NCBI RefSeq assembly: GCF_035594765.1
Contig: NW_026943821.1
Span: 13,051,608-13,115,607, forward strand
Origin: Anolis carolinensis
Lineage: Eukaryota
Direction of reading: 5' to 3'
Length of the DNA: 64,000 bases
Part shown: positions 27,062-30,000 of the stretch, piece by piece
Position numbering within the stretch: the stretch's first letter is position 1
Layout: every line of letters begins with the position of its first letter
Made by a program: the position numbers

Positions 27062-30000
27062 AGCCCTACCTATGAAAGTACGAAGGAGAGCACCAGTCTA
27101 AGCTCACTAGGAAGGGAGTTGCGGAGCCCGGAGGCGCCTCCAGGAAGATGTATTTGGGAAAATTGTATGGCATTTGTCACAGTGACCCATGGATAAGTCG
27201 ACCCAGGTTTTGGGAATTGATTATTTAACTAAATTAGAGCTTTACATATAGGGTAATAATTTTGCATCTGGGTACAGGGACATAGACAGATACTTCTTTG
27301 TACCTGTCCTCTCTCATTTTTCCCCATGCCAAGCTTCAGTGGCTTTACAGAAAGTCAGGATGGTTTTAGTTGGCACAGAGGAAGGAAGAGAATTCTAGCC
27401 TGGATATTCACCAAAACGCAACATACACAGACATAAGATTGATGTGTGCCTGCATGTGCTACAAACAGCTTCCCAGCCCAAGGCTGGCAGGCAGCATTTT
27501 TGCTCAAGATTGACTCAAGTGTAATATTTGTATATTTGTGTAATATTTGTATGACAGGTAAAAGTAAAGGTTTTCCCTTGACATTAAGTTTAGTCGTGTC
27601 TGACTCTGGGGGTTGGTACTCATCTAAGCTGAAGAATCTGTGTTGTCCATAGACGCCTCCAAAGTCATGTGGCCGGCATGACTGCATGGAGCGCCATTAC
27701 TTTCCCGCCGGAGCAGTACCTATTGATCTACTCACATTTACATGTTTTCAAACTGCAAAGTTGGCAGAAGCTGGGGCTAAAAGCAGGAGCTCGCCCCACT
27801 CCCCAGATTTGAACTGCCGACCTTTTGGTCAGCAAGTTCAGCAGCTCAGCGGTTTAACCCGCTGCACCATAGAGGACTCCATTTGTATGATATTTTCCCC
27901 CAAAAGCTTAATGCAAGTGATGAAAAATTTAAACAATGCAAGCTATTTTTACAATAATCATCACAATTAGCAAAAATGAAGGTGATTATTTTACATTGTT
28001 TGATGTATTAAAAACTCCTCTTGCTTCTTTCCTCCCTCCTCCCACAGCAAGACCCATGGCGATGGAAGACTTCAAGGCAGCCGTTTATGAAGGGAGGCTG
28101 ACAGATGCTGTGTCTAATGTGGTTGGAAAACCACTGCAGTATTTCAGCGAAGTGCCACTCAACATTGCTGTAGCAGGAGAGCCAGGCTCTGGAAAGTCCT
28201 CCTTCATCAATGCCATGCTGGGCTTACATGCAGGTGATCCAGGAGCTGCTGAGACAGGCATACAGACAACAACAGTAGACGTCAAGGCTTTCCCACATCC
28301 ACATCTTCTAAAGGTCATTTTTTGGGATCTCCCAGGAAAAGGAGCAGCATTTTTTGGTGAAGATACTTTTGCCAAGATTGACTTGAATCGCTTTGATTTC
28401 TTCATCATAGTTGGTGCCCAGCGTTTCCGGACCATTCACGCTGACCTGGTCAATGAGATCCAAGGAATGAGCAAGAAGTTTTACTTTGTGCGTAGCAACA
28501 TAGACCTTGATCTGGAAGCATCCAAGAGGCAGAGGCCTTCAGATTATAATGAGGAGAAGATTCTCCTGAGAATCAAGGACGATTGCCATGAGGGACTGCG
28601 AAGAGAAGGAGTGGCCAATCCACAAGTCTTTCTAGTGTCCAGTTATGAAACCAGCCGCTTTGATTTTCCCCTTCTTTGGGAAAAGCTGAAGAGTGATCTC
28701 TTAGGGCTGAGAAGGAAAGCTTTTCTGCTCAATTTGCCCAGCATCTACCTGCCAGTCTTGAACAACAAGAAAATGGCTATGAAGAAGCAGATTCTAACCA
28801 GAGCCCTTTGGTTGTGGATTTTTGCTGCTATTCCAATCCCAGGCCTTTCCTACTTCCCTGCCAGAAAAGTCCACTCCTGGTGTTATCGTAACTTTGGCCT
28901 AGATGATCCATCCCTCACAGATCTTTCTCAGCTGGTTGGGAAGACAGCAGCCACCTTTAAAGCAGTAATGAAGCCCCTGTCATTCACCTCTGTGGTTCTA
29001 TGGGGCTTTGCAGAATTGGTAAGAGCCGTGGTGATAATAGGAGACTATAACCACCATCGGCACTTCCCACTTTATGGATACCTACTGTCAGGAGGAATTT
29101 CACTTCTTTCCACCTACCTCATTTTAAAGAAATTTGTATCCAATGCTACCGACAACACCCAAAGAGTTCTGACTGAAGCTCTGGTGTGTGAGGAGAAGAA
29201 GTCCATATAGTGGCAAACATCCACATTCACAACTACAGTGATATTAGATTATGATGGACTCTGCAGGTTCTCTTGCCAGAAAAGGACTTGGACACCATGC
29301 AATATGTTCAGCATATTGATTAGATTCCAATCTATATAGTCAGAGTGTATGTTGGAGTGTATGTTCCTCTACCACAATTCCAAGACAATGAATTCTAGAT
29401 AAAGCATAGCAAGAATACACTTGAGAAACTGGAGATGTGATCCTCAATATTATTTGCTTTAATATTTTAATTAAGAGAGCTAGTATGATGGTTTGAGCAT
29501 TGGACTATGGCTCTAGAAACTAGGGTTGGAATCCTTGGCCAAGCCATAGAAACCCACAAGGTGACTTTGGGCAACTCTCTTGGCCTCAGAGGGAGGCAAA
29601 GGAAAAGGTAAACTTGCCAAGAAAACATTCTAATGGGTTCGTCTGAGACCCCATCTACACTGCCTTGTAATGCAGTTTGAATTGCACTATATATAAAATG
29701 CAGACTGAGCTGCATTAAAAAGGATAATAAATAACAATGATGATGATGATTTTCAAACAATGCAAAATTGTGCCAAGAAAAGTTTGATTTTATTCTTTGT
29801 AGAAATTTTTAAAAGTCAAATATCCAGCCCTCTTTTATTTGCTTATGTTATTCTGGATTTCCTAACAATGAGAAAAAAGCTATTCCCAATTTTTTTTAAT
29901 TTATTTTTTATTTTATTCCCAAAGAATGCTATTTAGCACATCACTACCATGCCAGCACCTGGATTTTGATCAGTGTCCCCACCTTTCAAAAAGGATGAGA

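What the first reader, a model, noticed from the sequence alone, without database searches (positions are those of the whole stretch)
28056..29210. IRG gene 3 has an altered guanine-binding motif: candidate regulatory or pseudo-GTPase
Seen: G4 reads RSNID where the three paralogs have RTK(V/M)D, G3 is DLPGKG instead of DLPG(I/V)G, there is no MG start, and the C-terminal region is shortened. The ORF is nonetheless intact and has a clear NF-kB+IRF promoter. Established: mammalian regulatory IRGM proteins carry a GMS P-loop change; all four genes here are GKS. Inference: a different route to an attenuated or altered-specificity regulator.
Basis: partly seen in the sequence, partly recalled or inferred. 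Interest (0 to 1): 0.65.

Follow-up and report, generated by a model that had tools for sequence, protein, structure and literature searches.

The report
Conserved lizard IRG with rebuilt GTPase site
This green-anole immune GTPase gene is intact and belongs to an old reptile lineage whose GTP-handling pocket was altered in steps, so it is a real candidate for a slow or regulatory GTPase, though nothing about its activity has been measured.

Summary
The motifs are real. The CDS 28056-29210 (+) encodes a 384-aa IIGP/IRG protein with G1 GEPGSGKS, G3 DLPGKG and G4 RSNID. The window is Anolis carolinensis.

The substitutions are not private and not sequencing errors. The gene belongs to a well-supported reptile orthologue clade (support 100/100).
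- Lys/Arg after DxxG occurs in 25 of 27 squamate clade domains, against 1 misaligned case in 344 other IRG domains.
- G4 Lys>Asn is shared only by two anoles and Sceloporus. It is Lys in the other 23 clade domains.

The switch-I glutamate that Irga6 needs for activated hydrolysis is absent from all 27 clade domains (Thr here).

P-loop GKS, switch-I Thr, DxxG and the G4 Asp are all kept, so "pseudo-GTPase" is not supported.

The gene is the most conserved IRG in the window. Its best Anolis sagrei hit is 90% identical, against 71% and 43% for two neighbouring IRGs.

An NF-kB-like site and an IRF-like site lie beside a splice donor 2.2 kb upstream. The C-terminus is not really shortened; the N-terminus is.

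A regulatory role is plausible but untested. G4 Lys loss recurs elsewhere in the family.

The parts
25816..25825 (.). NF-kB-like site GGGACTTCCC (near-palindromic)
   Evidence: Motif scan and sequence. It is one of 14 GGGRNNYYCC sites in the window and the only one within 60 bp of an ISRE core. Binding is not shown.
25857..25869 (-). ISRE/IRF-E-like element. The + strand reads cTTTCACTTTCat, so the - strand reads GAAAGTGAAAG.
   Evidence: The consensus is recalled from general knowledge of ISRE/IRF-E sites (GAAANNGAAA core). Function is not shown.
25890..25980 (+). Putative non-coding first exon. The 5' end is a guess; the 3' end is the CAG|GTAAAA donor at 25980|25981.
   Evidence: Sequence. 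The architecture (short 5' exon plus one long coding exon) matches what Bekpen 2005 describes for IRG genes (PMC1297648, passages). No transcript evidence was available. The two exons were examined separately and not joined.
28020..28046 (+). Polypyrimidine tract and splice acceptor (cttgcttctttcctccctcctcccacag|)
   Evidence: Sequence. The 40 codons of upstream in-frame ORF (27936-28055) have no counterpart in orthologues, which start MAMEDF or MEDF.
28056..29210 (+). Single-exon CDS of IRG gene 3, 384 aa plus stop
   Evidence: ORF. Pfam IIGP PF05049 E 9.5e-75, residues 4-372 of 384. 90% identical over 100% of its length to 'interferon-inducible GTPase 5-like [Anolis sagrei]'. AlphaFold2 model mean pLDDT 86.1, pTM 0.80. 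Best PDB fold matches are all IRGs.
28176..28199 (+). G1 / P-loop G41-E-P-G-S-G-K-S48. It is GKS type, with Pro43 where 59 of 70 outgroup sequences have Ser.
28254..28274 (+). Switch I T67-G-I-Q-T71-T-T73. Thr67 corresponds to Irga6 Thr102 and is kept. Thr71 corresponds to Irga6 Glu106, the catalytic Glu, which is lost.
   Evidence: Residue mapping comes from the phmmer alignment to Irga6 chain 1tq6_A. At this position the clade has M10/T10/A5/S2 of 27, and other domains have E248/Q76 of 344.
28326..28343 (+). G3 / switch II D91-L-P-G94-K95-G96. Lys95 corresponds to Irga6 Ile130.
   Evidence: K/R at this position occurs in 25 of 27 clade domains and 1 of 344 others.
28491..28505 (+). G4 R146-S-N148-I-D150. 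Asn148 corresponds to Irga6 Lys184, and Asp150 corresponds to Asp186 and is kept. The Asn codon is AAC.
   Evidence: Asn is shared with A. sagrei and Sceloporus. Lys is found in 26 of 26 other squamate clade sequences.

Best explanation
Gene 3 is the Anolis carolinensis member of an old reptile IRG lineage (squamates plus turtles) with one or a few copies per species. It is an intact, selectively maintained GKS-type IRG.

What the sequence shows:
- It keeps the residues that hold a guanine nucleotide and Mg: P-loop GxxxxGKS, switch-I Thr, DxxG and the G4 Asp.
- Its catalytic and dimerisation (G) interface was rebuilt in two steps.
- Step 1, by the base of sampled squamates: the switch-I Glu that Irga6 needs for dimer-activated hydrolysis was replaced by a small or hydrophobic residue (Thr here). 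The hydrophobic residue after DxxG became Lys/Arg. The P-loop Ser/Thr became Pro. The switch-II Thr/Ser (Irga6 Ser132) became Ala/Asp/Glu.
- Step 2, on the branch leading to Anolis plus Sceloporus after the split from Pogona: the G4 Lys became Asn.

What is inferred, not shown:
- The protein still binds guanine nucleotide, but more weakly or with faster exchange. This follows by analogy with NKxD-lysine mutants of Ras.
- It cannot use the Irga6-type Glu-dependent activated hydrolysis.
- It therefore behaves as a slow or differently activated GTPase.
- It lacks the N-terminal myristoylation signal of its neighbours.
- It most likely acts as a nucleotide-dependent partner or regulator of the fast-evolving effector-type IRGs in the same cluster, through the altered G interface.
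- It is probably transcribed from an interferon/NF-kB-responsive promoter 2.2 kb upstream through a short non-coding exon.
For: Family and fold:
- Pfam IIGP E 9.5e-75.
- PDB sequence hits: Irgb10 1.4e-58, Irgb6 3.2e-55, Irga6 7.7e-52.
- AF2 model pLDDT 86.1, with top Foldseek PDB hits all IRGs at E about 1e-18.

Orthology:
- In the careful ML tree of 51 rows, the reptile clade (30 rows) has support 100/100, squamates (26 rows) 100/99, and Anolis plus Sceloporus 100/98.
- The gene tree largely follows the lizard phylogeny.

Constraint:
- The best A. sagrei hit is 90% identical for gene 3.
- It is 71% for the 47924 gene (P0158) and 43% for the 9705 gene.
- Within the clade the P-loop GKS and the G4 Asp are kept throughout. 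Switch-I and DxxG exceptions occur in some Gekko and Podarcis copies.

Active-site remodelling (371 G domains from 301 proteins):
- Glu106 position: 0 of 27 clade domains have E, Q or D. Among 344 others, 248 have E and 76 have Q.
- Ile130 position: K/R in 25 of 27 clade domains and 1 of 344 others. That one is a 30%-identical cobra protein with a gapped DLPN-R.
- 20 sites that are at least 80% conserved in 70 outgroup sequences are changed in the clade. They include P-loop S>P and switch II T>A/D/E.

Functional meaning of these positions in Irga6:
- No Glu106 mutant (D, Q, A, N, K, R) activated hydrolysis (PMC3042988, passages).
- GMS regulators carry E106R, D164H and R159Q (same passages).
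- Lys184 and Ser187 form contact site II of the G dimer. Ser132 forms contact site I. Glu106 helps coordinate Mg (PMC4774019, passages).
- Ras K117N increases intrinsic nucleotide release and destabilises the protein (bioRxiv 10.1101/2022.01.06.475190, passages).

Other:
- No M at the P-loop Lys position in 371 domains. GMS-type regulators are absent from this sample.
Against: - No biochemical, expression or interaction data exist for this protein.
- Gln replaces the 'essential' Glu in 76 of 344 other reptile and fish IRG domains. E106Q is dead in Irga6, so Irga6 mutational rules may not transfer to distant IRGs.
- G4 Lys is replaced in 18 of 344 other domains, including an effector-like A. 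sagrei protein (TQVD). That argues the Lys is dispensable in this family.
- His at the Irga6-Asp164 position is a GMS hallmark, but it is common outside mammals (88 of 314 domains), so it carries no weight.
- Arg159 is retained, unlike in GMS proteins.
- The hydrophobic C-terminal segments are no stronger than in the effector-like neighbour. Kyte-Doolittle 19-residue peaks are 1.89 and 1.62 for gene 3, against 1.85 and 1.81.
- The introduced Lys/Arg could be a substitute catalytic residue, which would make the protein a competent GTPase.
- The comparison of best A. sagrei hits assumes those hits are orthologues.
- The promoter call rests on two short motifs.
Confidence: 0.45

Rival explanations
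1. It is an ordinary effector IRG. The substitutions are tolerated variation in a family with naturally low nucleotide affinity, and the protein binds and hydrolyses GTP and attacks pathogen vacuoles like other GKS proteins. Lys/Arg95 may even take over the catalytic role of the lost Glu.
For: - All nucleotide-holding motifs are kept.
- G4 Lys is replaced in 18 of 344 other IRG domains, and the switch-I Glu by Gln in 76 of 344.
- The ISRE/NF-kB-like promoter pair fits an inducible effector.
- The gene sits inside an IRG cluster.
Against: - It has conserved, low-copy orthology across squamates and turtles, and 90% identity between two anoles. The effector-like neighbour reaches 71% and belongs to a strongly expanded family. 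Pathogen-facing IRGs are not expected to look like this.
- It has no myristoylation signal.
- Neither Glu nor Gln is present at the catalytic position in any of 27 clade domains.
Confidence: 0.25
2. It is a conserved non-immune IRG, functionally analogous to mammalian IRGC (testis-enriched and not interferon-induced). It would have a housekeeping or tissue-specific membrane role.
For: - It shows stable orthology and slow evolution.
- Databases name it 'interferon-inducible GTPase 5-like', that is IRGC-like, though this is automatic naming.
- IRGs with non-immune roles exist: IRGC1 in sperm (PMC9232189, abstract in the search listing) and GM4951 on lipid droplets (PMC12749288, abstract in the search listing).
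Against: - The tree puts the two IRGC rows (platypus-relative echidna and hedgehog) on the other side of a 100/100 branch from the reptile clade.
- IRGC keeps the switch-I Glu and the G4 Lys.
- Gene 3 lacks the long IRGC C-terminal tail.
- An ISRE/NF-kB-like pair lies at the putative promoter.
Confidence: 0.12
3. It is a decaying gene or an assembly or sequencing artefact, and the odd motifs are noise.
For: - The Asn codon AAC differs from a Lys codon by one base.
- Another IRG ORF in the window (6..668) is cut short at 220 aa.
Against: - The ORF is a full 384 aa and is collinear with orthologues from at least 15 named squamate genera.
- The same Asn is present in A. sagrei and Sceloporus, and the same Lys/Arg in 25 of 27 clade domains.
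- The pleurodont stem branches (0.17 and 0.13) are no longer than other stems in the clade.
Confidence: 0.03

Closest known systems
Mouse GKS effector IRGs (Irga6, Irgb6, Irgb10; Pfam IIGP PF05049)
   Same: - Same family and fold.
- GKS P-loop, DxxG and G4 Asp.
- A single long coding exon behind a short 5' exon.
- Interferon-type promoter motifs.
   Different: - No MGxxxS myristoylation signal.
- Glu106 is replaced by Thr, Ile130 by Lys, Ser132 by Ala, Lys184 by Asn, and the P-loop Thr78 by Pro (mapping).
- About 30-40% identity only.
- It belongs to a reptile-only clade.
Mouse GMS regulatory IRGs (Irgm1-3)
   Same: - Family members with a modified catalytic interface and no myristoylation, proposed to hold GKS effectors inactive.
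- GMS proteins also lack Glu106 and have His at position 164 (PMC3042988, passages).
- Gene 3 has Thr and His at those positions.
   Different: - The P-loop is GKS, not GMS.
- Position 106 is Thr, not Arg.
- Arg159 is kept.
- His164 is widespread in non-mammalian IRGs.
- The extra positive charge sits in switch II (Lys95) instead.
- No IRGM sequence was in my trees, so relatedness was not tested directly.
IRGQ 'quasi-GTPases' (mammalian FKSG27/IRGQ, zebrafish irgq1-3)
   Same: They are IRG homologues with modified nucleotide-binding regions, suggested to be regulators of canonical IRGs (PMC1297648, passages).
   Different: IRGQ proteins lack the conserved GTP-binding motifs. Gene 3 keeps G1, G3 and the G4 Asp, so it is far less degenerate. 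The motif table of that paper (Additional data file 7) could not be seen.
IRGC (Iigp5, the source of the database name 'interferon-inducible GTPase 5-like')
   Same: It is a conserved member of an otherwise fast-evolving family, with one or a few copies per species.
   Different: - It lies in a different clade (100/100 branch).
- IRGC keeps Glu106 and Lys184 and has Ala after DxxG.
- IRGC has a long C-terminal extension.
NKxD-lysine mutants of Ras (K117N)
   Same: The same position of the G4 motif carries the same Lys>Asn change. In Ras it speeds intrinsic nucleotide release and destabilises the protein (bioRxiv 10.1101/2022.01.06.475190, passages).
   Different: - Ras binds nucleotide in the picomolar range. 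IRGs are recalled to bind in the micromolar range, so the consequence may be much smaller.
- In Irga6 the Lys is also a dimer contact (PMC4774019).
HAS-GTPases and SRP-type GTPases (basic residue after DxxG)
   Same: - Canonical IRGs fit the HAS-GTPase definition, with a hydrophobic residue in place of the catalytic Gln/His (abstract of bioRxiv 10.1101/2020.08.16.253419 in the search listing).
- The squamate clade leaves that class by placing Lys/Arg there.
- This recalls the DTAGR motif of Ffh/FtsY. That motif is recalled from memory and was not checked here.
   Different: There is no homology beyond the G fold, and no evidence that Lys95 reaches the gamma-phosphate. No coordinates of the model were available to me.

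Membership tests
IRG / p47 GTPases (Pfam IIGP PF05049) | Significant full-length match to the family profile | tested here: met
   E 9.5e-75, 252 bits (cut-off 24), residues 4-372 against profile positions 6-372 of 375.
IRG / p47 GTPases (Pfam IIGP PF05049) | Ras-like G domain flanked by N- and C-terminal helical domains, as in Irga6 | tested here: met
   The AF2 model has pLDDT 86.1 and helices before and after a beta/alpha G core. Foldseek top hits are GM4951, Irgb10, Irga6 and Irgb6 at E about 1e-18. TM is only 0.42-0.45, so the relative domain placement differs or is uncertain.
IRG / p47 GTPases (Pfam IIGP PF05049) | Canonical G motifs: G1 GxxxxGK(S/M), G3 DxxG, G4 (T/S)KxD | tested here: inconclusive
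   G1 and G3 are met. G4 is S-N-I-D, so the Asp is kept and the Lys is lost. 22 of 371 family domains also lack this Lys, so the Lys does not define membership.
IRG / p47 GTPases (Pfam IIGP PF05049) | Long single coding exon | tested here: met
   There is an uninterrupted ORF with an acceptor 9 nt before the ATG.
GKS subclass of IRGs | Lys in the P-loop (G-K-S) | tested here: met
   GEPGSGKS.
GMS regulatory IRGs (IRGM) | Met in place of the P-loop Lys | tested here: not met
   This gene has GKS. M occurs in 0 of 371 surveyed domains.
GMS regulatory IRGs (IRGM) | Catalytic-interface substitutions E106R, D164H and R159Q (PMC3042988) | tested here: inconclusive
   E106 is Thr (lost but not Arg). 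D164 is His, but His is common outside mammals. R159 is kept.
GMS regulatory IRGs (IRGM) | Binds GDP-bound GKS effectors on endomembranes and keeps them inactive | not testable with these tools
   This needs cell biology or biochemistry.
IRGQ quasi-GTPases | Conserved GTP-binding motifs lacking or radically modified | tested here: not met
   G1, switch-I Thr, DxxG and the G4 Asp are present in gene 3 and in most of its clade.
IRGC | Orthology with mammalian IRGC | tested here: not met
   The two IRGC rows fall in the other half of the tree across a 100/100 branch.
HAS-GTPases | Hydrophobic residue at the Ras-Gln61 position after DxxG | tested here: not met
   This gene has Lys95. The rest of the family has I/V/M/L/F/A (328), T (13) or N (2), with one misaligned R, in 344 domains.

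The most novel reading that the evidence does not exclude
Squamates, which have no GMS-type IRGM proteins in this sample, evolved their own dedicated regulator of the IRG resistance system by a different route. It would be a conserved, low-copy, non-myristoylated GKS protein that lost the catalytic switch-I glutamate and put a Lys/Arg into switch II beside the gamma-phosphate and G interface. It would dock onto effector IRGs and hold them off self membranes. Pleurodont iguanians then loosened its nucleotide grip further with G4 Lys>Asn. Alternatively, the switch-II Lys/Arg is a built-in cis 'finger' that gives this clade a catalytic mechanism not seen in other dynamin-like GTPases.
Probability: 0.2. 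Interest if true: 0.65.

Novelty: new variant of a known kind. Interest (0 to 1): 0.42.

Why it matters
How IRG effectors are kept from attacking the host's own membranes is understood only in mice, through GMS (IRGM) proteins.

A reptile lineage has many effector-type IRGs, no GMS protein in this sample, and one slow-evolving member with a rebuilt catalytic interface. That gives a concrete, testable candidate for an independently evolved regulator.

It also offers natural experiments on three positions that were studied only by mutagenesis in Irga6: Glu106, the residue after DxxG, and the G4 Lys.

If the protein turns out to be a normal GTPase, it would show that the Irga6 catalytic model does not generalise across the family.

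Tried and rejected
- Pseudogene or sequencing error: rejected on the orthologue data.
- D164H as a GMS-like signature: rejected, because His is present in 88 of 314 domains.
- Shortened C-terminus: rejected.
- Extra hydrophobic membrane segments as a special feature: rejected, because the 47924 gene has equal peaks.
- Cobra protein P0180 as a snake orthologue with Arg after DxxG: rejected. It is 30% identical with a gapped motif. No snake, bird, crocodilian or named tuatara orthologue appeared among the 120 listed hits of 336. Absence is not established.
- ISRE-like hit at 47884 before the 47924 gene: rejected. It is the polypyrimidine tract of a splice acceptor.
- GM4951 as a naturally atypical IRG: rejected. 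N86K and D125G are induced mouse mutations (abstract in the search listing).
- Literature on IRGs in lizards or reptiles: three searches found nothing relevant in the held library.
Further members of the 90%-identity clusters, such as other anoles, could not be seen.
- Not run: complex prediction. Two IRG G domains would be expected to pass by likeness to the solved Irga6 dimer, so a pass would not separate regulator from effector.
- Not run: the search of protein representatives and the protein-atlas search. They return no names or taxa, and 50% clustering would collapse the clade.
- No vertebrate DNA collection was on hand, so dN/dS and promoter conservation could not be computed.
- No coordinates of the AF2 model were available, so distances from Lys95 and Asn148 to the nucleotide could not be measured.
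Full report
**What is there**

The window holds four IRG-type ORFs:
- 6..668 (-), only 220 aa;
- 9705..10958 (-), 417 aa;
- 27936..29210 (+);
- 47924..49120 (+), 398 aa.

All four match Pfam IIGP, with E values of 5.2e-59, 2.4e-91, 9.5e-75 and 3.1e-98. The 9705 ORF is 100% identical over its whole length to 'interferon-inducible GTPase 5 isoform X3 [Anolis carolinensis]'. The window is therefore green anole, not human, and it contains no N.

For gene 3, orthologues start MAMEDF or MEDF. A polypyrimidine tract plus CAG acceptor ends at 28046. 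Together these fix the start at ATG 28056, giving 384 aa.

**The observation**

The alignment of the four window proteins shows the following.

| Motif | Gene 3 | Paralogues |
|---|---|---|
| G1 | GEPGSGKS | GKS in all |
| G3 | DLPGKG | DLPGIG / DLPGVG / DLPGIG |
| G4 | RSNID | RTKVD / RTKVD / RTKMD |

- Gene 3 has no Met-Gly start. Two paralogues start MG in the window, and the annotated protein of the third starts MGHVVS from upstream exons.
- The 'shortened C-terminus' does not hold. From the conserved FGLD motif to the end there are 105, 106 and 113 residues. The N-terminal helical part is what is shorter, with G1 at residue 41 against 51 and 60.

**Promoter**

- The only NF-kB-like/ISRE-core pair within 60 bp in the whole window lies at 25816-25825 (GGGACTTCCC) and 25858-25867 (TTTCACTTTC).
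- In 300 first-order Markov simulations of the window, the mean was 0.15 such pairs, and 11% of simulations had at least one.
- The pair lies about 115-165 bp upstream of a CAG|GTAAAA donor at 25980|25981.
- With the acceptor at 28046, this gives the short 5' exon plus single coding exon layout described for IRG genes (PMC1297648, passages).
- The 47924 gene shows the same acceptor-before-ATG layout.
- I examined the two exons separately and did not join them, since the first is non-coding.
- This is motif-level evidence. No transcript or binding data were available.

**Relatives**

The search found 336 proteins at E<=1e-20, of which 120 are listed.

| Hit | Identity to gene 3 |
|---|---|
| Anolis sagrei | 90% over 100% of the length |
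| Sceloporus fragments | 75% and 69% |
| Pogona | 64% |
| Elgaria | 63% |
| Other lizards and geckos | 50-61% |
| Turtles | 48-49% |
| The window's own paralogues | 35-37% |

I built a careful ML tree of 51 rows. The rows were 48 of the 120 listed hits, chosen by hand, plus three window proteins. The hits comprised all full-length clade members, three turtles and 19 outgroup representatives. Fragments P0002, P0042 and P0048 and near-duplicates P0019, P0020 and P0045 were left out.

| Group | Rows | UFboot / SH-aLRT |
|---|---|---|
| Reptile clade | 30 | 100/100 |
| Squamates | 26 | 100/99 |
| Anolis + Sceloporus | 3 | 100/98 |
| Those plus Pogona | 4 | 88/76 |

Geckos, lacertoids and toxicoferans group largely as the species do. 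This is an orthologous lineage with a few local duplications. The two IRGC rows sit on the other side of the 100/100 branch.

**How old are the odd residues**

I mapped gene 3 onto Irga6 numbering through the phmmer alignment to chain 1tq6_A:

| Gene 3 | Irga6 |
|---|---|
| K47 | K82 |
| T67 | T102 |
| T71 | E106 |
| K95 | I130 |
| A97 | S132 |
| R123 | R159 |
| H128 | D164 |
| N148 | K184 |
| D150 | D186 |

I built an HMM of the G domain and aligned every domain found in 309 proteins. These were all hits of the three searches plus the four window proteins, with one unnamed IRGC-like row, P0086, left out. 371 domains from 301 proteins covered G1 to G4. Three Gekko paralogues of the clade dropped out because of a two-residue switch-I deletion.

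| Position (Irga6) | Clade (27 domains) | Others (344 domains) |
|---|---|---|
| After DxxG (I130) | K/R 25, I 1, V 1 | I 290, V 24, T 13, other 16, R 1 |
| Glu106 | M 10, T 10, A 5, S 2 | E 248, Q 76, D 7, K 5, other 8 |
| G4 Lys (K184) | K 23, N 4 | K 326, R 8, Q 4, H 3, N 2, Y 1 |

- The single 'other' Arg at I130 is a 30%-identical cobra protein with a gapped motif.
- Turtles of the sister group have Asp at the Glu106 position and Val/Met after DxxG.
- The four clade Asn at G4 are the window, an old mis-modelled copy of the same gene (P0002), A. sagrei and Sceloporus.
- The P-loop Lys is K in 369 domains and R in 2, and never M.
- Among 26 other squamate clade sequences the G4 Lys is invariant. 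K148N is one of 11 substitutions shared by the two anoles and Sceloporus at sites at least 85% conserved in the rest.
- A site-by-site comparison with 70 outgroup sequences lists 20 clade-specific changes at sites that are at least 80% conserved elsewhere. They include P-loop Ser>Pro (residue 43), Glu>Thr/Met/Ala/Ser (71), Ile>Lys/Arg (95) and Thr>Ala/Asp/Glu (97).

**What these positions do in the one well-studied relative**

- In Irga6, no Glu106 mutant (D, Q, A, N, K, R) could activate hydrolysis. The authors note that GMS regulators carry E106R, D164H and R159Q (PMC3042988, passages).
- In the solved parallel G dimer, Ser132 makes contact site I. Lys184 and Ser187 of the G4 helix make contact site II. 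Glu106 swings in to help coordinate Mg (PMC4774019, passages).
- In H-Ras, K117N and other Lys117 changes raise intrinsic nucleotide release and destabilise the protein (bioRxiv 10.1101/2022.01.06.475190, passages).
- The additional files of these papers, including the GMS alignment, the affinity tables and Bekpen's table of quasi-GTPase motifs, could not be seen. They may bear on the details.

**Interpretation**

Shown:
- The gene is intact and old.
- It is the slowest-evolving IRG in the window. Best A. sagrei hits are 90% for gene 3, 71% for the 47924 gene (P0158) and 43% for the 9705 gene.
- It keeps every residue that holds nucleotide and Mg.
- Its catalytic and dimer surface was rebuilt in two steps. 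The first is squamate-wide. The second is on the Anolis plus Sceloporus branch.

Inferred:
- Nucleotide binding is retained but loosened.
- Irga6-type activated hydrolysis is absent.
- The role is as a partner or regulator of the expanded effector-type IRGs, rather than as an effector.

'Pseudo-GTPase' in the IRGQ sense is not supported.

**Against over-reading**

- Gln naturally replaces the 'essential' Glu in 76 other domains.
- The G4 Lys is lost in 18 other domains, including the nearest A. sagrei relative of the effector-like neighbour (TQVD).
- His at position 164 is common outside mammals (88 of 314).
- Arg159 is kept.
- The new Lys/Arg could itself be catalytic.
- The best-hit identity comparison assumes orthology.

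**Structure**

- AlphaFold2 on a 62-row alignment gives mean pLDDT 86.1 and pTM 0.80. Confidence is lower in switch I and II (blocks at 77-82) and in parts of the C-terminal helices (68-75).
- The best PDB fold matches are IRGs only (GM4951, Irgb10, Irga6, Irgb6; E about 1e-18; TM 0.42-0.45).
- No coordinates were available, so the reach of Lys95 and Asn148 could not be measured.

**Novelty**

- The protein is annotated automatically in public databases as 'interferon-inducible GTPase 5-like'.
- Three full-text searches found no paper on IRGs of lizards or on this motif set.
- I class it as a new variant of a known kind. Interest is moderate: a concrete candidate for a non-GMS regulator and a natural test of the Irga6 catalytic model, resting so far on sequence alone.

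Noticed in passing
window 9705..10958 (-): This paralogue is also non-canonical in switch I. It has Val at the Irga6-Thr102 position and Ala at the Glu106 position (AAQVGVTATT). It has the longest branch in the tree (1.22). It is 100% identical to an annotated A. carolinensis protein that has an 87-aa N-terminal extension from upstream exons, starting MGHVVS. Its best A. sagrei hit is only 43% identical.
   Followed up: partly
window 6..668 (-): This IRG ORF has an MG start and stops after 220 aa, 5 nt from the window edge. Its switch I reads TDVIQVL, which is Asp at Gly103, Gln at Glu106 and Leu at Thr108. I cannot tell whether it is a pseudogene, a truncated form, or a gene continued past an intron beyond the window.
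   Followed up: partly
proteins P0036, P0038, P0161, P0165: Tandem two-domain IRGs of turtles, Gekko and Podarcis have Lys at the Glu106 position in their first G domain. This parallels the E106R of mouse GMS regulators and gives another candidate built-in regulator.
   Followed up: no
protein P0005 (Gopherus), residues 232-609: In a tortoise the gene-3-type domain (48% identical) is modelled as the C-terminal half of a 609-aa tandem IRG behind a canonical domain. This could be a real tandem protein or a fused gene model.
   Followed up: no
protein P0158 (A. sagrei), closest relative of window 47924..49120: This effector-like IRG has G4 TQVD, that is Lys>Gln. Other anole and Sceloporus IRG domains have His or Tyr there. 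The G4 Lys seems labile in iguanian IRGs generally.
   Followed up: partly
window 30809..34819 (+): Three ORFs of 293, 236 and 203 aa lie in an AT-rich stretch (GC 0.30-0.36). The first matches the endonuclease/reverse-transcriptase families (Pfam Exo_endo_phos_2, E 1.1e-06). This is a LINE-type retroelement just downstream of gene 3.
   Followed up: partly
window 54496..55419 (-): A 307-aa ORF has no Pfam match. It starts with a hydrophobic segment and contains two similar halves (...FDKEPPLVQQNARMVIQCAG... and ...FAKEPFCIQDNAHMVVDCGG...).
   Followed up: no
window 27000..27060 and about 27540..27880: An (AAT)n microsatellite and a stretch that looks like a tRNA-derived SINE lie inside the putative intron of gene 3. 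The SINE call is from recall and was not checked with a tool.
   Followed up: no
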